64,000 bases of DNA from Sphaerodactylus townsendi. Lineage: Eukaryota. A program made the position numbers and the translations under genes. The DNA is taken from assembly GCF_021028975.2 (NCBI RefSeq), contig NC_059428.1, forward strand, positions 152,148,001 to 152,212,000. The letters run 5' to 3'. This document shows, one piece after another, positions 25,601-40,520 of this stretch; position 1 is the first letter of the stretch; each line of letters opens with the position of its first letter. Under the pieces are notes generated by a model, which had not been told where the DNA came from, did no database searches, and worked only from the letters and a program-made list of their open reading frames with translations.

Positions 25601-28600
25601 TTGTTTGGAGGACTGATAAATCCTCTTGGCAACATCCCACCCCTTCCAAAGGGATCCGCTATCCTAGCAGACCGAATGCGGGGAAATCCCTCATCATCAC
25701 CTTCATCTGTAGTTCATGCAGCTCAGCTTCCAGTCTGGCTTTATCTTCCCGCAGCCGGTTCAGCTCTTGAGAGGTGCTGGTCAACAGCTCAGCGTCCGTA
25801 ATGGCGAGGTGGTATTCTGGAGGGCCGGGGTCCATTTCATTACTGCCCAGCAATCGGATCTGTTCACGCTGCATCCTGTCACCAAACGGATAAATGAACT
25901 CACTGGCCTTTGAGTCCAAGAGGGGGGTGGTGGTACCCAGGACTTCTAACAAAACTATTTTGAATGAAGGAATAAATAATCTAGCCTCCAGTCGGGAGCG
26001 TTCCCTCTGACAGCACTTTGCTTGGAAGGGCGGATGGCTCACTTTTCTGTGGGTCTCAAAAAAAATAAGCTGTACTTGTGATTAATTTAGCCACCCAAGA
26101 ACCTTTGCCCTAATCTGGCTGAGATCTCCTCAGGTCTCAGAAGCCAAGCAGGGTTGGCACTGGTTAGTACTTGGCTAGGAGCTGACCAAGCAAGTCGAGG
26201 GATGCTACAAGGAGACAGGCAAGGACAAGCAATGCTGATTCTGCAAACTCGGCAGATCACAACAGGGAGGGCAGGAAGGCTAAATGGACAGTAGGATTGC
26301 TTCAGACAGCCAGAATTAGTTTGCTATTCAGATGCGAAAGCCGCTCTCCCCCAAAAGTTTCAGGCCCAGCCCTCCCCAGTTGCAGAGACCATCCCTTGCA
26401 GTCTCCCAAGATTGCCCCCTACCTGTATGCGATCAACAGGTTCTCGTGCGTCCTGACCAGGTTCTGCAGGCGCTTCTTGTAGCCCCGCGCGGCTCCAGCC
26501 AGTTGCTCCTCACGAGACCGATGGGAAGCCCGGATGTCCTTCAGCATGCTGTCCACAAAACGCTTCATATGAGCTGCTTCCGAGGGCACTTTACCAGCCC
26601 CTGCCTTCTCCACGGACTTATTATCGACGTATGCCTTGAAATATACAGGACAGCGTCATGTCAGCCCAAACTACGGATGAGGGGGGCACACTCTGTGTCC
26701 TGAGGAATACATGAATTTAAGATGCTGACCCAGAAGGGAGCTCTTATTTGTTTCCTCTGCAACCAAGGAAGTCTTGGTTGACTTGGGTGGGGGCAGAGGG
26801 CACCTTCAGCAGGTGGATCCCAAAAGGAAAATGCTCACCGCCAGATCTGCGATATACTGCACAAGCCGAGAGCGGTACTCTTCATTCAACTCCTTCAGCT
26901 GTGTTTGGAGCCGGGAATTCTCAGCCTCAACTTCTTGGAGCTGGCTTTGGGAGGTGAGGACAACCTGCAGCCCAAACAAAAAAGGGTGGGGTTAGCCCGG
27001 GAGATTATTGTGGCTGTCTGGAAGGGCAGCCACATTAGCTGGTCGGAGCAACGACAGATAGAAGTCTTGTCTTTGAAGTGCCACAAATGATGCCAACCTT
27101 GTCACTCAGGGCTGCCTTTCTGCACCCTCACTAGCTACTTCGCCCTTTTTTACAAACTAAACACCCCCTCAAGCCTTCCTTACCGCCGACTGTTCCGCCA
27201 ACTTGTGCTGCGTGTTCCGAATCGCTTTCTTGGCTTCCTGCAGCTCTTTGCCCATGACCACCCTGCCAACAGAAGAAACACTGTTGCTTAGAACTACACC
27301 CGTCATGCTGGTTGGTAAGCACAGAATACACCAAGACCTCAACGCTGGCATCCGTGTGATTTGATGCCAGCACTGCCCACCTCCCTCATAGCTGCATGCA
27401 ATTATAGGTTGCCAACTCTGGGCTAGGGATTCTGAGAGATCTCCGTGCCCACCTGGAGGCTGACAACTCTATTTACATAGCACAGAACATGAAGCCTTCT
27501 GGGAATCTCAGTTCCTCTCTTTAAGTTCTCTTGTTCCCATCTCTCATAGTTGCAGAAAAAAAGCTTACAGAGCAATGCTGCCTGACCTATTCTGGTCTGT
27601 TTAGTGATGCCCTCTCCCAGAAAAGTGTTCTTAGGATCACATTGTTAGAAGCCAAGTGGCAGTGTCTTCTGAAGGCCTCAAAACCCAAACATATAATAAG
27701 CCCAGCATTACACATTTATACTAGTTACACAGTTATTCTCTCATCCCAGTAAACTCTAGGAATTACAGCTCTAATGGAGAACACAGGAGAACACTAGAGA
27801 TCTCAGCACACTACCCAAGCCACACTTTCCAGGATTCTCTGGTACCTGGACCATACCATTAAAAGTGATACTTTAAAAACCCTCAGATTTGTAGCCCCTA
27901 AGTCACTAGCTGGCTCTCACATTCTCTCCTCCAGTTTCCGTTGCTGGGAACTGTACATTTCCTTCATCTTTTCCATCTCTGTGGTGATGTGATCCTGATT
28001 TCCAAACAGCTGTGGAGGAGGGGAAAAAAGCAGAGGATTTTTTTGCATCCTGCAAATGTCAGGAATGACCCCTGTGAGAAAATCACAGGGAAGCAAAAGA
28101 CTTCCTGCACCTAGGCCAGCTTGGGGCTATGGAAGCTTTCATACTCTTAACTTTCAGTGCTTGGCTGTGCCAAAGCATAGCCTGAGTCTCAGGAGCACTT
28201 AACTGCGTGACCTGCGCAAGCTATAGTCTCATGATGCCATGAAGAGAAACATACCAAAGCATACAGGAGCATGCATGAACAGTCCTGTTGGTTTGGGGTG
28301 GGAAAATGTCCTCCCAGCTTGGACCACTATTGCAGGGCACCATGTTGATTTCCCTCCTGTCACCCATTGACACCATGTCAGGGGCCCCACACTCACCGAT
28401 TTCTCCAGTTTCCGGCGTTCATGTTCCGAAGCAACCACATCTTCTGGCTGATAGCAGAAAAGCACAGAAGTCTGAGCATAGGAAAAGGACATTGCCTTCT
28501 ACTAAGTCAGGCCATTGGTCTGTCAAGATGGCAGGCTCATTCTCTGGGCGGTAAGCAAAACGGCTGGCAAATGGCAGGGCCGGTGCCAGAGGGTGAGGGC

Positions 28601-31600
28601 AAGGATTGGTAGCAAAAAGGGGGAGATGTAGAACTCTGCAACAGCCATTATTGAGAGGAAGCAGGCAAGTGAGTAAACTCGTGAGTGAGTTGTTCTCCTG
28701 GTTAAAATACTGACTCCCTGCTCTGCACTCTCACTAAACTATAGTCCCCCCAAAGCCCCATGGAAATAAAACCCAGATCCAATCTGTGTCAGCTGGCAAT
28801 TGGTCCCAAGAGTCATACCTTCACTTTGCGGGCAGAGAGACGGTGCACCAAAGCACGCACCCGTTCCAGTTCGGCAGAAGGCTCGGCGGGTTGGCCTTGG
28901 GTCTCGGGGCTGTTCAGCCCACGGGGATGAAAACTCCTTGCATTGGCCAGATTGAGTAACTCTAGGCTCAACTCTTCATTCTTGGTGACCTACAATACGC
29001 GACAGACGATAGAACAGGCTTGCCAGGGACCAGATGGATTCCGACCAGCAGCCTTAATTTTGACTGAACGCCAAGGCCAACAAGAGAAGGATAGAAGTCA
29101 GATGTCTTGGTCACTGCAGAAGGCCCCAGAGCTGGACAAGTCATGACTCTGATTTTCAAATTATGTTGGGACTGGGTGTAGGTCATGTAAGAGAAGAGCC
29201 AGGGGGAATGTTCATACCTCCTGTTCGTGCTCCTTGCTCAGTGCCAGATAGTTGCTCTTCAGAACCAGGTATTCATCCGCCAGCTCCTTACGATTCTCCT
29301 CTAAGGCACGCAGCCGTTCCCGCAAGGCATCCCGCTCCCCGGTGGTCTTCTCATCATGGAGTTCGACTTCCAAAACACGATTCTCCAAGGCCAGGATCTG
29401 GGAAAGTAAAAAATCAAATTCAGGGGGTGAGGGGCGAAATACTTCTAAATTGCAGCTGACCTTCAGACACACAGTAAAAATCTTCACGCTGTGGCAACAG
29501 CTGCTGCCAAAGCAACGTTTTTAAAAATCTGCACAGCCAATCCTGTCTCCAGTGATCAGTCAGGAACACTGCTGGGCAAAATCCTTCCTGATCACATTTT
29601 CCAAAAACACTTGATGAGTGCGAGGAAAGGTGTTGGCAGGGACCAGGGTGTGCATGGGTACCATGTTGGCGATCTATGATATAGCCTGTTAGCTAGTTAA
29701 AATTATAGCCGGTTTCTGCCTCTTTAATTGTTATGCTAAAGAATCCTGAGTCTTATGAGGCAAGGGAGGGATGCTCTGCCGGCCTTCCGAAGGTTCGTTG
29801 GGAAAAGGATATACCTGCTTCAAGTGAGTTGTGTGGATCCACCCAGTGTCTACTAGTGGGTACTTTGAAGGTGACAAAGTGAATCACGTATCGCATTATG
29901 GAATCTGCCCAAAGAGACCTACCATGTTCCTCAGCTCGAAACATTCTTCTTCGTATTGCTCTCTCATCTTATTGCTCTCAATCTGGAAATCAACCAGGTC
30001 CTTGGAAATCTACAGGAAGGCAAAATGTGGTTTTTCTTCTAATTTTGGACACAGAATCCTGAAGTATTAAATACTGCTAGCTTGTGATACTGTATTCCCC
30101 TCCCAACCCTTGCTCCTAAAACATGGCCTTATGTGGGATATTGATGTAAAAAGACAGTCTGGCCTACTTTGCAACGCTGTTGTAGGAATTACTAAAACAT
30201 TGACTGGCTGGCCTTTGGAGGAAATTTCTGGCTCCTTTACAGGATTTCTTATGCTTTATTTTATCATGCTTCTTTCACATTGGGGTGTTTATTTTGTGCC
30301 AATTATTGTAGATGGATTTCTGATAGTTTATTTACATGCACAGTTCCAGCTGTGAAAGCCCCCCTGAGTTCCCAGTGGGAAGAAAGGTAGGGTACATTTT
30401 CTATAAATAAAATAATCATCGCTTATATAAGTATTCTGGACCCCTCCTCAACCAGACAGATTGTTCCCAGAATAGATTACAACAATCAAACCAGCAAAGT
30501 CAAAGGCCGTTTCTGCACGGCCAGGAGGCGCCCCCAAGCCGGCAGGAGTTCTGCCGGCCTGGGGGCGGGAGCCTGCGAAGGGGAGGCCGGCAGACGGCAG
30601 ACGGCTCCGCACGGAGCCGCCTCTGCGCCCTCCCCCGCCCCACATCACGGTGTAGCCTCCTGCCGTCAGCCTGCGAGGTGGTCGCCGAGTCCCCGCCCAT
30701 GCTAGCCCTCCCGACCCCTGGAGGAGTCGGAGGACAGTGTGGGGCGGGGCTGTGAAGCTCTGCCCGCAGGCTTAATGCAGGAGGACTACAGTGAGTGGGG
30801 CGGAGATCGGAGACATGCGTCTTCCCGGCGAAGCCCGGTTCGGGTGACCGGCGCCCTTGAGGGAAGACGCTCCCTCCCCAACAACAACCCCTTTAAAGGG
30901 TTGTTGTTTGAAGCTGACAGCCCTGCAGAAGCAGGAGGAAAGCGCATTGACGCTCTGGGAGTGGAAGCGCATTTGTCGCCGCTGCTGCTGCCAGGCCAAA
31001 GCGCTGCTGCGTTACGCTTAGCGGCCACCTCTTGGCGGCCTGGGGGCGCCTTTTTTGGCGCCCCCAGGCCGTCATTAATGGGCCGTGCAGAAACGGCCAG
31101 TGTCTCATTTAAAATGGTGAAACAAAGAACAGTAGAGTAAGCTTCATGCAACAGGAATAAACATATATAAACATATGAAACCAGCAATTTAAACCATAAA
31201 GAAAGGAGACATAAAAGTGTAAACAGACAAGAGTCTTTCCTAACATTTTGTAGAACCCAGCAACAGTTTGTGACTGAGGGCCACCATTTAGTGACTGGTT
31301 CTGCCTCTGTGGCAGCTGTTTTCAGCTGAGACTGGCATTGGGAAGGTCTCCAAGGGGAGACAGTTCCGAAGCGGGGAAGCCACTATGGAAAAGGCCCTGC
31401 TCATTGCTGTCATTCTCATCCCTTTTTTAAAAGGAGGAAGACACAATAGTATCTTGGCTGATTATCTTATTGGGGAGCGTGGGGATAAAATATTGTAGAA
31501 GGTCATATGCTCATCTCCACATGTGCCGCTTGTGTCTCTCACCTTCAGTTTCTCCTCTTCGCTGTGGATCAGCCTTGATGACAAGGCAGTCTTTGATCCA

Positions 31601-32658
31601 GCCAGCTGCCCTGTCTTCTCCTGCAGCTCTCCGAGTTGGGCATACAGCCTCTCATTACGGTCTTGCAGTTGAACCTGCCAGTGGGGATCAACAAACGCAT
31701 TCAGCATATCCAACACCACTACCCTTTCACTGCAGCTAGAAGCTGCAGCATCACTAAAGGGGGCAAATGTAAGTGGTTAGAGTACCGGACAAGATGAAGT
31801 GGGAGACATTAAAAACCTTTCATGGATGAAAGCTGGGTAGGTGACCATGGGTCACGTGTTCTCTTTCAGCCTCACCTACCTCACAGGACTGTTGTGAGGG
31901 TAAACTCAGGAAGGGAGAATCATGTTTCTCCACCCGAGTTTCTCGGAGGAAGGGTGGGATAAAAAGGAAACAGATGGACATAAAAGAGCCGATAGGGCCT
32001 GCTCAGAGCCAGCATGGGCTTTGAGCGAAGCTTTGACTTGGACATCATATGAAAACAAACCTTATCACTTGCTCTTAGCATTCTCTCCATGTGCACTGTA
32101 CATTCGATGTTTAAAAAATCCCATCATTTATATTTCCTTAAAATAGTTTGGGGGTTGCTGCTGCCGCCGCCTTTTATTCTTACAGCAGCCCAGGGAGGTA
32201 GGGAGGTTGATACATTAACTATCCCAAAATTTCCTTCTCCTTGCCGCATTTATGGCAGGTTGACATATTAATTGTCCCAAAGTTTCCTTCCCCTTGCTGC
32301 ATTTATGGCAGAACAACAGCAATGCCTTGTGGGACAATCATCCTCTCTATATTGGGCATCCCACTATGAGATACCCGTAAATGGAAGGGCAGCCTATAAA
32401 CGAAATACATAAAATGAAACGAAACACCTAATATTCCCCCTTTTACACGGCCACGACTGTGTACTAGCTTGTAAAGTGGTTGTATGAACAGATACCGGTT
32501 TCGGAAGAAATGCCACTTTTCTGTGGCTCTCAGAACTCAGGTACTTCTGCCAGGAAAGCAAATTTTCACAGGGCACTTACATTTTCATTGGTGAGAAGCT
32601 GGACCTGTTCTCGGAAGGCACTGACAGCATTGGTCCCAGAAGTATTTCTAGACTCCAT
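19687..32658 (-). CDS. CCDC78: Coiled-coil domain-containing protein 78, 571 aa; exons high to low: 32658-32581, 31674-31543, 30009-29923, 29397-29218, 28989-28819, 28447-28397, 28009-27921, 27262-27184, 26964-26839, 26634-26423, 25875-25701, 24767-24727, 22120-22054, 20806-20706, 19813-19687
   Basis: Fifteen exons with GT-AG boundaries and matching phases give 1716 nt with no internal stop. Recognisable segments: SEEEKLK|ISKDLVDFQI...FELRNM|ILALENRVLEVEL, EAENSRLQTQLKELNEEY, DIRASHRSREEQLAGAARGYKKRL...LLIAYR, SWAELRKQLREFT, AEEQVAELHEYVDKHL. It lies tail-to-tail with ANTKMT, as in human. The start ATG at 32658 is less certain than the internal exons. Confidence 0.92.
20938..21230 (-). mobile_element. 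Squam3-like CORE SINE
   Basis: Reverse-complement full-length copy. Confidence 0.85.
22794..22929. mobile_element. hAT MITE
   Basis: TIR CAGTGGTGGGATTCA / TGAATCTCACCACTG; perfect 8-bp TSD cctgtgcc; right end internally duplicated. Confidence 0.9.
23984..24280 (+). mobile_element. Squam3-like CORE SINE
   Basis: Full-length copy. Confidence 0.85.
25139..25279. mobile_element. Harbinger-like palindromic MITE
   Basis: GGCCCCTTCC...GGAAGGGGCC long TIRs; 3-bp TSD TGA; same family as 9651-9791. Confidence 0.88.
30505..31098. mobile_element. GC/CpG-rich Harbinger-like non-autonomous transposon in a CCDC78 intron
   Basis: Perfect 18-bp TIR GGCCGTTTCTGCACGGCC / GGCCGTGCAGAAACGGCC bounds the GC-rich tract exactly; no clean TSD. 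Confidence 0.75.
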
Positions 32659-36064: not shown

Positions 36065-36135
36065 GTGAGTGAGTGAGTGAGTGAGTGAGTGAGTGAGTGA
36101 GTGAGTGAGTGAGTGAGTGAGTGAGTGAGTGAGTG
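36065..36135. repeat. (GAGT)n microsatellite downstream of the PERCC1 stop
   Basis: Read directly; about 17 units. Confidence 0.95.
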
Positions 36136-36389: not shown

Positions 36390-37244
36390 TCATACACCAC
36401 TGAAATGGTCTGTGTCCACTGCTCGTTGGTGAATGTCGCTCGCAAGCTCTCGGCTGGCTAGGAGTTCCTCCTGACTGGTTTCTGATGTCCAGTTGGCCAG
36501 AAGGTCGCTGAAATCTGGTGGGTTGCTATTGAGGATACCTATGGGGCTGTGAGATGGCTCTTTCCAAAAGGATTGGGGAAGCTTCCTGCTTTGCATGGAG
36601 GTGACGTGGGCATACTTCCTTTCCACCCGCGAGTTCCTGCCTTCGGAGGAGGCGCAATGCTCCATGTACCTGCACAAGCCGTATTCAAAGAGCTCAGCCA
36701 GAGGTCCCAGCTTCCCTGCCCCATCTTTGCCGCAGAGGCACCTCCACAGTGGCGAATCCAGTTGCGCCAGGGTCTTCGGAGCACCTGAAAAGTCATCCCC
36801 TTCCTCCGGCTCCCCGCTCTGAGAAATCCTGACCAAGTCCGCATAGTACAAGACCCGTCCTGACAGCCGCGGGGAGCCATGGTTGTCATAGATGTTGGGA
36901 AGCTCCCCGTCTTCATCTTTGCCCTTCCTGCCAAAATACCTCTGGATGTCACCATTGATGCGTTCTGCGAACTGGAGGAGCTGCAGTGTCATGTTGACGT
37001 TGCTCAAGCTGGGCTCATCTGAGTCCACCCATTCCCCTTGACCTGGACTGAGGCTTTGAGGACTGTCTTCCAACGCCATCTCTTCTCTTTCCTCTTCTTC
37101 TTCTTCCTCATCCCCCTCCATTTCTTCCTCCTCAGATGAATCTTGGAAAACCATCTCCTGGAAGGCCATGGCAGGCAGGAATGAATGCTGGAAGGCTGCA
37201 GGCAGCCGAAATTTGCTCAGGTTCTGTATGACGCTGGCTGCCAT
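36390..37244 (-). CDS. PERCC1: Proline and glutamate rich with coiled coil 1 (FAM181/YAP-like TEAD co-regulator), 284 aa, single coding exon
   Basis: Intact 855-nt ORF. It starts MAASVI, has a poly-Glu tract, and contains LQLLQFAERINGDIQRYFGRK, LYYADLVR, LGPLAELFEYGL, ERKYAHVT-MQSRKLPQSFWKEP and PDFSDLLANW, matching PERCC1 motifs as I recall them. A splice acceptor (tttagtttag) ends at 37266, 21 nt before the ATG. Confidence 0.95.
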   Translation of the reverse strand: MAASVIQNLSKFRLPAAFQHSFLPAMAFQEMVFQDSSEEEEMEGDEEEEEEEREEMALEDSPQSLSPGQGEWVDSDEPSLSNVNMTLQLLQFAERINGDIQRYFGRKGKDEDGELPNIYDNHGSPRLSGRVLYYADLVRISQSGEPEEGDDFSGAPKTLAQLDSPLWRCLCGKDGAGKLGPLAELFEYGLCRYMEHCASSEGRNSRVERKYAHVTSMQSRKLPQSFWKEPSHSPIGILNSNPPDFSDLLANWTSETSQEELLASRELASDIHQRAVDTDHFSGV

Positions 37245-38858
37245 TTTCAGCTCTGGTGCTAAGATCTAAACTAAACAACATCAGACTAAATCATTAGTTG
37301 GCATCCACCTTACCTAGAGAATTTTCATTCTGCTTTTCTGATACAGTAGAGATCAGTAACTTTCATATCAAATATCAGTGTACACATTGTGCAGACTGAG
37401 GGCCTAGCTAACCAATCCAGACAAATGCGGGTAACTAAATTTAGACGTGTTATTCAAAATTTAGAAAAGTCATTTCACATGAGAGCTGTTTGGATGCTCT
37501 TTGAAATGCAGCCTCAGTGAATGAATACATTAATATTGATTTGCAGTCCACAGCCAGCAATAGAAAAATTTTAAATAGAAAGTTCCAGTGGCTTTTAAGC
37601 ACACCCAGAAAAAAAGAGTAGTTAATATTGTAGCTCTTAATAACACAGGAAGTCCTCCATCCTCCTGATTTTCTAAATTGGTTTGCCAAAAGGCAAAAAC
37701 TGTGCTATGGATCTAGAGACCCATTGGTCCTTGCCCAGAAGTAGACCATTCTCCTCAACGGTAAGGCATTTGCTTGGCGTGCACAAGGTCCCAGGTTCAG
37801 CCCCAGGTATTTCCAGTTAAAAAGATCAGGAGTAGGTTATGTGAAAGACCTCTGCCTAAGTAGAAAGCTGCTGCTAGTCTTAACAGACAATAAGGACCGT
37901 GACGGCTCGATGGCACGGTTCAGGAATAGGCAGCTTTGTGTGGTGATGAGAAAGCATCTCAGAGAGGTGGGAGGCAGAAGGGAATGGGTTAACCATGCCT
38001 CCCCCCCTCCCCCCCCCTCCCACACACAATTTCACCACTCCAAATGGACCCCTTCCAAAGCAGCATGTCAGGATGATGTCCTGAATATGGAGCGGAAAGA
38101 ACAGGTTCAAAGGCCAGCTTAGCCATGAAGCTCATCGGGTGATTTGGGGTCAGTGCCCCTCTCTCAGCCTAGCCTACCCCACAGAACTGTTGTGAGGATG
38201 AAAACAGAGGCAGGGAGGACCACTTACGTGGCTCGGAGCACCTTGGAAGGAAAGGAGAATAGGAAAGTGGTTCCTGTTTCCCTCTTCTAACGCTTACATG
38301 CACATGTGTAAAATTCAGTGGGGGTTTCTGCTGTGAAGCAGATTCAATTCTTGGGATCTTCAGGACTCTCTTGCACCGATATGGCTGTGTCTTTAACCGG
38401 GCAATCTTAGGCAGAGTAACACCAACCTAATCAAAGCTGTAACTCTGCACAGGACTGTTAAATGCTACCCTAAGTCACAAAACAGCAGCTCCTGTGTATT
38501 TATGGTATCATTTAAAGGGTCCTTTGGTTAGCCTTGGGGCAGCAGACAAAAAGGACATGATTCCAGACTCTGAGTGGGGCATGCATTCCATTTCCTATGG
38601 CTCCTTCACAAAACAAACAAATCCTGCATGAAGAAAGTTAGCACCCCAGCTGAAATACTACCTTTCTGCCTGCAGTGCTGCTGCTCTTACATGCAGGGAG
38701 TTTTGTTTTTTTAACGTGGGAGTCATTTGACCATACAACACCCCCTTGCACATAACCAGAGCCCACAATTCTGCCTCCTGAGTGATGTATCTCTTAGGAG
38801 AACCCAAAGTTTGAAACCAGTCTTCCCCTCTCCTACTTTCCAAGCTTGCTTTGCTTAC

Positions 38859-39040
38859 CTGACCACTGTGGTTCAAGCGCCCCAAGCTTCTTGGCCGTAT
38901 CAGCCCTACCGCCCAGGGGACTGAAGTATTTATAGAGGAGCTCCCAAACTGGCCGCTGGCAAATATTTAGTGGCTGTATTGTAATCGTAGACTCGGTAAA
39001 CAAAACTCTGGTTTGCTTTAGTGCCTGGCAACAAGAGAAC
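38859..39040 (-). promoter_or_regulatory. Candidate PERCC1 core promoter and non-coding exon 1
   Basis: On the minus strand, TATAAATA at 38934-38927 predicts a TSS near 38907-38900. A strong donor CAG|GTAAGC ends the exon at 38859 and can splice to the acceptor at 37266. Upstream are FOX motifs (38959-38968, GTAAACA 38996-39002) and an RFX-like GTGCCTGGCAAC (39021-39032). Confidence 0.65.
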
Positions 39041-40026
39041 ACCGCAGACAAGGAGAAGGCGAGGATGGGAAATAGGGCTCACCTTAATGGCTCACTTCCT
39101 GGGGGATTTTCGAGTGTTATTCCTGCCGATTCACCTATTAGGTCCACAGGCCCAGCTGCCAAGGGGCCCCGCCTGCGTTGACAGAGGGCTCTTATCTCCT
39201 GTGTTGATTTGGAGACTAAATCAAGCCTCGTCAAATAGGCGTAAAATTAAATTTCACGGTATTTTGACTCCAGGAGTAGGCATCATCTTCTGAAGAAAGC
39301 AATGCTCATCCAACAACCTCTATACAAATAAGAGATGCCGGGCCATGGCAGGAGAGGGAGGGAGAGAGAGAATAGCAGCAGAATAGGGTCTTCCAGTTAG
39401 AAACCCATGTGTGAAAATGCTCCATTTTACTAGCAGTACAACTAGACTTTTTTTGGGGTGGGGGGTGTCATTAGCCCTGCTTTCTTAACTAGCAATTACA
39501 AACCCTCCGTTAAATTCCTTCAGCAGGTTTTTAGAGACGAACAAATGTGCTTCTTCGCCTAATGTGCAAAGTTGCTTGCGGAACTCACTGCCACTAGATG
39601 TAGCCATGCCTGCTAATTTAGGGCTCAACCAGACAAGACTCTGGTACCTCCTTTTTTTAAAAAAATGCAGTTATCAGGCATAAGGGGAGGGCGACTCGGA
39701 TTAAAACTGAGACAAGGTCTTAAACATCTCCCCTGCTTATTCCAACCTTATCTTGTTATCTTTTATGTTGGAACTATCAATTAGTACAAAAAAATGCATA
39801 GCAGCCATATTGGGCCGGACCAGTGGTCTACCTAGTCCTGCATCCCATTTCGAAAAGCAGCCAGCCAGATTTCCCTAAAAGGCCTACAGGTGAGGCATGA
39901 AGGTCAAAGCCTCTCCAACTTCTTGCTCCTCCACACACTGGTAGCCACAGGTACACTGCTTCTGGACATTCAGGTTCCATTTAGTCATCATGGCTTCTAG
40001 CTATCAATGGACCTCTCCTGTGTGAA

Positions 40027-40520
40027 TATTTATTTATTCATTTATTGATATTTGGATGTTTAGACCGCCCTCCCCCAGAGGAAAAAAAATACAATACTTT
40101 AAGCATGTCGTCACATTAAAACCATCATAATTAAAACAGTAAAAACAATTAAAGCAGAATATTACTGTAAAATGGGAACTGTATCACAGCAGATGGCAGC
40201 CCAACCCACCCCCCTATCATGCCTACAAGAGGCCTAGATGTAATGGGGTTAAATGGTCAACCCTGCTGGCCAAACGCCTGGCGTAACTGGTCCATTTTGC
40301 AGGGTCCTGGCCTCCCTCCCTGTAAAAGCCCTGGCCCTTGTGGAGGCCAGCTGGATGTCTTTTGGATCAGGGACCTCCAATAGGTTCTCCTCCGAGGAGT
40401 GGAAGGACCTAGCGGGGCAATATGGGGCGACGCGGTCCCTCAAATATGCAGGTCCGAGGCCGCTTATAGCCTTGAAGGTAAAAACCAACACTTTGAACAT
40501 GATCTGGAACTCAATATGTC
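40027..40520 (-). mobile_element. L2-clade LINE 3' fragment
   Basis: Translates FKVLVFTFKAISGLGPAYLRDRVAPY...RARAF; (TAAA)n-like tail at the left end. Confidence 0.8.

What the first reader, a model, noticed from the sequence alone, without database searches (positions are those of the whole stretch)
38859..39300. Putative reptile counterpart of the PERCC1 intestine-critical region: TATA, 5' mini-exon and FOXA/RFX/E-box/CDX motifs
Seen on the minus strand: TATAAATA (38934), a ~45-nt exon and a consensus donor (38859). Within 320 nt upstream are GCAAATATTT, GTAAACA, an X-box-like GTGCCTGGCAAC, CAGCTG (39153) and CGTAAAA (39240), in sequence with no recognisable repeat. Established: deleting the non-coding ICR beside human PERCC1 abolishes its expression and causes congenital diarrhoea with enteroendocrine defects; FOXA, RFX6, NEUROD1/NEUROG3 and CDX2 drive that lineage. 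Inference: this is the orthologous control element, with readable motif grammar.
Basis: partly seen in the sequence, partly recalled or inferred. Interest (0 to 1): 0.7.

Follow-up and report, generated by a model that had tools for sequence, protein, structure and literature searches.

The report
Conserved PERCC1 promoter in a gecko

Summary
All named motifs are present. The ORF 1.6 kb downstream is a single-copy gecko PERCC1. No mammalian DNA was available, but some public gene models mistranslate through their own PERCC1 promoter. Four of 50 N-terminal extensions (dunnart, vole, camel, frog) match minus-strand 38985-38955, with 0, 0, 1 and 0 of 286 control tiles scoring as high. All four, plus two sharks, also encode the TATA word. 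Reading frames differ between species, so the constraint is on DNA. It is best read as the core promoter and non-coding exon 1. Overlap with the human ICR is inferred from published coordinates, not aligned. The RFX, E-box and CDX words occur at chance level, miss the consensus tested, and their conservation is untested. No RNA evidence was obtained. Verdict: a real, conserved promoter of a known disease gene; the five-factor grammar is overstated.

The parts
38955..38985 (-). Conserved block A: ACAAT word plus forkhead palindrome
   Evidence: Best or near-best hit in the whole window for dunnart P0167 (35.3 bits), frog P0292 (24.8), vole P0182 (22.9) and camel P0301 (21.7) extensions; base-level compatibility
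38978..38982 (-).
   Evidence: Compatible with the residues of all four species; factor identity inferred
38961..38968 (.). AAATATTT, core of the FOXA1 homodimer (DIV) element; strong half-site GCAAATA at 38959-38965 (+)
   Evidence: Core defined in PMC6009666; 2.9% of tiles; compatible in dunnart, vole, camel and frog; binding untested
38927..38934 (-). TATA box TATAAATA
   Evidence: encoded in 6 of 50 extensions (four above plus two sharks), shuffle mean 0.18, 0 of 5000 shuffles reach 6
38859..38904 (-). Predicted non-coding exon 1 (start inferred about 30 nt after TATA, range 38907-38898); no ATG
   Evidence: the frog model P0292 joins the coding exon about 68 nt after its TATA word and the pig model about 59 nt, against 76 nt here (read)
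38853..38858 (-). Splice donor GTAAGC after CAG
   Evidence: Best of 601 GT sites
37266..38858 (-). Predicted intron 1; holds repeats at about 37586-38203; acceptor most likely at 37265 (alternatives 37270, 37258, 37252)
   Evidence: Heteronotia extension P0003 has Q (possible CAG) 8 codons before the ATG, the same place as the window's TAG (inference)
36390..37244 (-). PERCC1 coding exon, 284 aa
38996..39002 (+). Second forkhead core GTAAACA; conservation untested
   Evidence: RYAAAYA occurs 109 times in the window
39021..39032 (+). RFX half-site (GGCAAC) only; not a full X-box
39153..39158 (.). E-box CAGCTG; not the NEUROG3/NEUROD1 type; chance level
39240..39246 (+). CGTAAAA, weak CDX-like word; chance level

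Best explanation
38985-38859 (minus strand) is likely the core promoter and non-coding first exon of gecko PERCC1, homologous to the sequence upstream of PERCC1 in mammals and a frog and likely to the promoter end of the human ICR. Shown: motifs, single copy, PERCC1 ORF, and cross-species conservation of an ACAAT word, AAATATTT and the TATA box at near-fixed spacing. Inferred mechanism: a FOXA dimer binds the palindrome about 30 bp upstream of the TATA box, perhaps with a SOX factor on ACAAT, and opens the promoter in gut and pancreatic endocrine progenitors. TBP then fixes a start near 38904. A roughly 45-nt exon splices at 38859 to the coding exon near 37265. Odds by step: promoter plus exon 1, 0.88; overlap with the human ICR, 0.7; FOXA dimer as the main input, 0.6.
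For: PERCC1 identity: 343 hits, best 85% to a gecko. Human gene has a non-coding exon 1. Four of 50 extensions hit 38985-38955, with 0, 0, 0 and 1 of 286 tiles as high. As a negative set, 82 further N-termini, mostly distant relatives, gave at best 9 of 286. The TATA word follows at the same distance in frog, 1 nt closer in dunnart and 3 nt further in vole and camel, while the frog spacer has diverged in sequence. Frames differ between species and the frog frame has a stop in the gecko, so the constraint is non-coding. In vole and camel the eighth TATA base is G, which keeps TATAWAWR but breaks RYAAAYA. A related organism shows 10 listed substitutions in 38204-38808 and 0 in 38809-39233, P 0.005-0.011. 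Human coordinates put the ATG at hg38 1432594, the fetal-gut transcribed element at -1863 to -1294 and the ICR at -1745 to -269/-218; the gecko TATA is at -1690.
Against: No transcript, start site or binding was observed. No human, mouse or chicken DNA could be aligned. The three mammalian models may descend from one another through homology-based annotation, so they are not independent as models (the residues still come from each genome; the frog is in another frame). The shark hits are weak alone (13 and 41 of 286 tiles). The substitution table was truncated: 13 of 24 differences on that contig were not shown. The hg19-to-hg38 offset (50,001) is recalled. Equal distance to the ATG is partly coincidence, as the gecko intron holds repeats. 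The site misses the full FOXA1 monomer consensus AWTRTTKRYTY by more than one base. The human upstream neighbour C16orf91 is on another contig. A second good donor lies at 39083.
Confidence: 0.75

Rival explanations
1. One reading: the region out to 39300 is one control element in which RFX6, a bHLH factor and CDX2 act through 39021-39032, 39153 and 39240 together with FOXA.
For: All words are present. The set occurs in only 9-25 of 1023 tiles and 9 of 2000 shuffles. The low-substitution stretch appears to reach 39233. CpG is less depleted at 38900-39300 (observed/expected 0.49-0.60, against 0-0.29 in 37300-38900; 39500 and 40300 are as high).
Against: Each word alone is at chance level. There is no full X-box, no strict CDX site and no NEUROG3-type E-box in the element. 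The set was chosen after looking. No gene model reaches these sites, so conservation is untested.
Confidence: 0.2
2. The element is the orthologous promoter but not the ICR: the critical human sequence lies in intron 1, or the promoter block falls just 5' of the ICR boundary.
For: By coordinates most of the ICR's 1.5 kb would be intron 1, and the human transcribed element begins 118 bp outside the ICR (recalled offset). The human start site is unknown to me.
Against: The only active element reported in the region largely overlaps the ICR (PMC7826262). The single-copy gecko intron part diverges at about 1.5% from the related organism while the promoter shows no listed change. PMC12881181 calls the mouse mutation a promoter mutation.
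Confidence: 0.2
3. The conserved block lies inside a longer first exon or encodes an N-terminal extension, with transcription starting further upstream (for example an exon ending at the donor at 39083).
For: Several public models start upstream of the TATA word. One gecko frame is open from 38985 to the donor. A second consensus donor exists at 39083.
Against: The frames differ between frog, dunnart and placentals. The gecko has ATT where mammals have the ATG, and a stop in the frog frame. The spacer changes by -1 nt in dunnart. The invariant word is a TATA box.
Confidence: 0.07

Closest known systems
Human PERCC1 intestine-critical region (ICR; Oz-Levi 2019, not readable here; described via PMC10182134, PMC10182130, PMC7826262)
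   Same: Non-coding sequence 5' of the single PERCC1 coding exon. Similar distance to the ATG: gecko TATA -1690; human transcribed element -1863 to -1294; ICR -1745 to -269/-218.
   Different: The ICR is a 1.5-kb deletion overlap defined by patients; this is a 130-bp promoter and exon. No direct DNA alignment was made. Flanking genes differ (CCDC78-like and LUC7L-like here; C16orf91 and CCDC154 in human).
[quoted passage not shown]
   Same: Two-exon layout with a non-coding first exon and one coding exon; the promoter block is shared with vole, camel and dunnart.
   Different: Predicted exon 1 is longer here (donor 76 nt after the TATA start, about 59 in pig). The spacer between the forkhead site and TATA is 3 nt shorter than in vole and camel. 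The gecko transcript is unobserved.
FOXA1 DIV (D0) homodimer element (PMC6009666; also bound by FOXO1, PMC8034652)
   Same: Exact AAATATTT core with one canonical RYAAAYA half-site.
   Different: Characterised there in enhancers of breast and prostate cancer cells; here it sits about 30 bp from a TATA box. The second half-site is non-canonical. The weight matrix could not be read and binding is untested.

Membership tests
PERCC1 gene | Protein homology to PERCC1, single copy | tested here: met
   (85% to a gecko PERCC1, about 41-45% to placental mammals); 1 match among 9 candidates in the own genome
PERCC1 gene | TEAD interface 2 (LxxLF) and interface 3 motifs (PMC9710580) | tested here: met
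   Pfam TEADIR3 25.3 bits, just under the cut-off of 26; the first Pro of interface 3 is Ser here
PERCC1 gene | Non-coding exon 1 spliced to one coding exon | tested here: inconclusive
   Signals present and homologous models splice from this region, but no transcript was seen
PERCC1 gene | Human neighbours C16orf91 and CCDC154 | tested here: not met
   C16orf91 family match on contig C12, window on C4; the CCDC154 search was blank and uninformative
Orthologue of the human ICR | Sequence homology to mammalian PERCC1 upstream DNA | tested here: met
   Indirect, through mistranslated gene models of dunnart, vole and camel; covers 38985-38910 only
Orthologue of the human ICR | Homology to the human 1.5-kb interval itself | not testable with these tools
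   No human DNA available; position inferred
Orthologue of the human ICR | Needed for PERCC1 expression in gut endocrine cells | not testable with these tools
   Needs deletion or reporter assay
TATA-type core promoter | TATAWAWR (recalled consensus), conserved | tested here: met
TATA-type core promoter | Start site about 30 nt downstream | not testable with these tools
   Needs CAGE or 5' RACE
FOXA DIV element | AAATATTT core | tested here: met
   compatible in four other species
FOXA DIV element | Flanks fit the published matrix; cooperative dimer binding | not testable with these tools
   Supplement unreadable; needs EMSA
RFX X-box | Two half-sites (recalled consensus) or the RFX6 word CATGGCAA | tested here: not met
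   One half-site only; one mismatch to CATGGCAA
NEUROG3/NEUROD1 E-box | RCCATCTGBY (PMC8387919) | tested here: not met
   CAGCTG at 39153 does not match even with one mismatch; a one-mismatch word at 39180 is one of 70 in the window
CDX site | GYMRTAAA (recalled consensus) | tested here: not met
   Only the loose YRTAAA is present, found in 46% of tiles

The most novel reading that the evidence does not exclude
The essential content of the human intestine-critical region is a 60-bp module: a SOX-like site, a cooperative FOXA dimer site and a TATA box held about three helical turns apart, kept since frogs and mammals split, with the TATA context reaching back to sharks. Single-base changes in it would silence PERCC1 and cause congenital diarrhoea missed by exome and deletion tests.
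Probability: 0.3. Interest if true: 0.65.

Novelty: new member of a known kind. Interest (0 to 1): 0.42.

Why it matters
What drives the narrow endocrine expression of PERCC1 is open in the papers I could read; one motif scan reported only TEAD1 sites and none for MNX1 or HHEX (PMC12881181). Narrowing a 1.5-kb patient-defined interval to about 60 conserved bases gives specific bases to mutate and a place to look for non-coding variants in unsolved patients. The coordinates also suggest that the long patient deletion removes the promoter and exon 1 and the short one removes the whole coding exon, so no distant enhancer is needed (inference, with a recalled assembly offset). The gene, its exon 1 and the ICR are known, and the primary paper could not be read and may already describe this conserved stretch, so surprise is moderate.

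Tried and rejected
RNA evidence: no RNA holder listed; the four runs laid are contigs of unrecorded kind and show no junction. Metagenome scan: 4 loci of 105 stretches, 32-39% identical and invertebrate-like; no upstream alignment above shuffles. LEPRW (pig, warthog, two bats) against LEPQW in the gecko exon looked like exon homology (0.3-1% per pair, but 55 of 250 family-wise). Rejected: camel and sheep models show that this mammalian stretch starts inside the TATA box, about 50 nt upstream of the gecko LEPQW. A published human exon-1 forward primer aligns 14/20 on the gecko TATA (7 of 127,962 positions reach 14). Not counted as support: vole and camel keep a TATA word where the primer would not, and the reverse primer has no colinear match. 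Reading the TATA as a forkhead site was rejected (eighth base G in vole and camel). Bird extensions (MHG...) score at chance (165-273 of 286 tiles). A plain BLOSUM scan put only 2 of 50 extensions (dunnart, one shark) top at the promoter and missed frog, vole and camel; the codon-aware score was designed after seeing the matches by eye. Region and longer-length protein searches added nothing on exon 1. Earlier scan notes: none. Oz-Levi 2019 is not held. Supplements: the FOXA matrix was unreadable; NEUROG3 peak tables are not held; the ChRO-seq supplement gave no hit. These could bear on which factors bind. No complex or structure prediction was run, as the finding is non-coding.

Full report
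Observation. Every word is at the stated place. TATAAATA (38934-38927) and the donor after 38859 are on the minus strand; GCAAATATTT, GTAAACA, GTGCCTGGCAAC and CGTAAAA read on the plus strand. The stretch is single copy (1 match), at single-copy depth in 4 of 4 runs, and without tandem repeat or Rfam match. Of 25 TATAWAWR sites in the window only this one has a consensus donor within 200 nt, and that donor ranks first of 601 GT sites between the gene and its upstream neighbour (recalled frequencies).

The gene. The ORF 37244-36390 (284 aa) is PERCC1: 343 hits, the best being geckos at 74-85%, one copy in the genome, TEAD-interface motifs present. Its neighbours are a CCDC78-like gene downstream (DUF4472) and a LUC7L-like gene upstream on the other strand. 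The C16orf91 family, a human neighbour, is on another contig. Human PERCC1 has a non-coding exon 1 and one coding exon (PMC10182134, parts 1-2 of 3 read; PMC11608836, whole text).

Motif statistics. Against 1023 tiles of the window and 2000 dinucleotide shuffles, only AAATATTT is uncommon (2.9% and 0.7%). This is the core of the FOXA1 homodimer element DIV (PMC6009666, passages). The RFX half-site, E-box and CDX word are each in 18-51% of tiles. No full X-box or strict CDX site is present (recalled consensus). The RFX6 word CATGGCAA (PMC10794167, passages) is missed by one base, like 81 sites in the window. The NEUROG3 motif RCCATCTGBY (PMC8387919, passages) is absent from the element; its only exact copy in the window is at 40188, in multi-copy DNA.

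Conservation. No vertebrate DNA from other species could be fetched. But among 312 PERCC1 proteins collected, 50 distinct N-terminal extensions exist, and some read through the promoter. Scored by codon against both strands of the whole window, four hit the same place, starting at 38985/38984: dunnart XP_074135755.1 (35.3 bits, 0 of 286 control tiles as high), frog XP_077305600.1 (24.8, 0 of 286), vole XP_049988026.1 (22.9, 0 of 286) and camel KAB1252068.1 (21.7, 1 of 286). The other 46 had 13 or more tiles as high. Two of those, both sharks, start exactly at the TATA box (13 and 41 of 286). A further 82 N-termini from a wider search gave at best 9 of 286. A peptide word able to encode TATAAAT occurs in 6 of the 50 extensions, these same six; shuffles give a mean of 0.18 and never reach 6 in 5000. 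The score was set up after I saw the matches by eye, and a plain BLOSUM scan ranked only the dunnart and one shark first (BLASTP dunnart E 2e-05 for the single comparison).

What is conserved. Two islands: ACAAT...AAATATTTG (38985-38955) and the TATA box. For the dunnart, 42 of 48 bases are forced or compatible. The frog aligns without a gap across both islands while the spacer between them has diverged; the spacer is 1 nt shorter in dunnart and 3 nt longer in vole and camel. The frog, dunnart and placental models use different frames and the gecko has a stop in the frog frame, so this is DNA-level constraint and those N-termini are likely annotation artefacts. Amino acids fix only some bases, so 'compatible' is weaker than 'identical'. 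The mammalian models may have been propagated from one another. The models start at 38985, so nothing further upstream was tested this way. In a related organism, 10 substitutions are listed in 38204-38808 and none in 38809-39233 (P 0.005; 0.011 with the border at the donor), but 13 of the 24 differences on that contig were not displayed.

Relation to the ICR. Two patient variants (c.348 at 16:1432941, PMC13151016, part 1 of 2; c.492 at 16:1433085, PMC13673151, part 1 of 2) put the human ATG at hg38 1432594 on the plus strand. The fetal-gut transcribed element that largely overlaps the ICR is chr16:1430731-1431300 (PMC7826262, passages), or -1863 to -1294. With the deletion coordinates and a recalled offset of 50,001, the ICR is -1745 to -269 (-218 with the 1,528-bp figure of PMC10182130, passages), and the short deletion runs to +1356, through the whole coding exon. 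The gecko TATA is at -1690 and the donor at -1615. So the ICR likely contains or abuts the promoter and exon 1, and the gecko element likely corresponds to its 5' end. This is inference from position plus homology to other mammals, not an alignment to human.

Mechanism. Shown: sequence, uniqueness, gene identity, conservation and spacing. From the literature: FOXA1 binds AAATATTT as a cooperative dimer; PERCC1 is expressed in gastric and duodenal endocrine cells (PMC9710580, parts 1-2 of 3) and is induced on MNX1 or NKX2.2 knockdown in a beta-cell line (PMC12881181, passages and supplement). Inferred: a FOXA dimer, perhaps with a SOX factor on ACAAT (consensus recalled), opens a TATA promoter; transcription starts near 38904; exon 1 splices to about 37265. 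Other forkhead proteins bind the same core (PMC8034652, passages), so the factor is not fixed by sequence.

Novelty. Searches for PERCC1 (31 papers, 30 listed), the ICR, older gene names and PERCC1 with TATA or promoter listed no base-level description of this promoter; for most hits I saw only the listing. The primary paper, Oz-Levi 2019, was not available, and I recall that it mentions a conserved part of the ICR, so the block may be partly in print. Other papers seen: PMC11444705 (part 1 of 2) and PMC7298854 (passages). Verdict: a real, conserved promoter and predicted first exon of a known gene, new for this species; the proximal forkhead-TATA core is well supported, the distal grammar is not. 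Interest 0.42.

Noticed in passing
Proteins P0167, P0182, P0301, P0292, P0038, P0048, P0102, P0122, P0112, P0125, P0207, P0239, P0279: Public PERCC1 models of dunnart, vole, camel, frog, two sharks, pigs, bats, sheep and goat carry N-terminal extensions that start upstream of or inside the TATA box; likely annotation artefacts, but useful as a record of promoter DNA.
   Followed up: yes
window 36390-37244 (-), residues 4 and 216: The gecko protein has Ser at two positions that are nearly invariant in the 28-sequence alignment (Gly4, and Pro216, the first Pro of TEAD interface 3). Real change or sequencing error not checked.
   Followed up: no
window 25659-31776 (-) and 48592 onward (+): PERCC1 lies between a CCDC78-like gene and a LUC7L-like gene. 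Fused models in a horned lizard (P0032) and a rattlesnake (P0288) suggest the CCDC78 adjacency is shared by squamates; the C16orf91 family is on contig C12. The neighbourhood differs from human.
   Followed up: partly
window 39083 (-): A second consensus donor AAG|GTGAGC inside the finding, fourth of 601; could end an alternative upstream exon.
   Followed up: no
window 37314 (-): TAG|GTAAGG, an acceptor-like AG directly followed by a strong donor, 69 nt before the ATG; fifth of 601 donors, weak pyrimidine tract.
   Followed up: no
window 40188-40197 (-): The only exact NEUROG3-type motif in the window lies 1.25 kb upstream of the TATA box, within multi-copy DNA.
   Followed up: partly
window about 38904-38896 (-): The shark model P0038 is compatible with 9 of 9 bases at the predicted start site, exactly 30 nt after its TATA word; hints at a conserved initiator but is weak alone.
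   Followed up: partly
L002-L005: Four distant PERCC1 relatives (32-39% identity, invertebrate-like) in metagenome contigs; no similarity to the gecko promoter.
   Followed up: yes
window about 36065-36135 and 1848-2347: A (TCAC)n microsatellite downstream of the PERCC1 stop and a tandem array near the window start, seen as repetitive ORFs.
   Followed up: no
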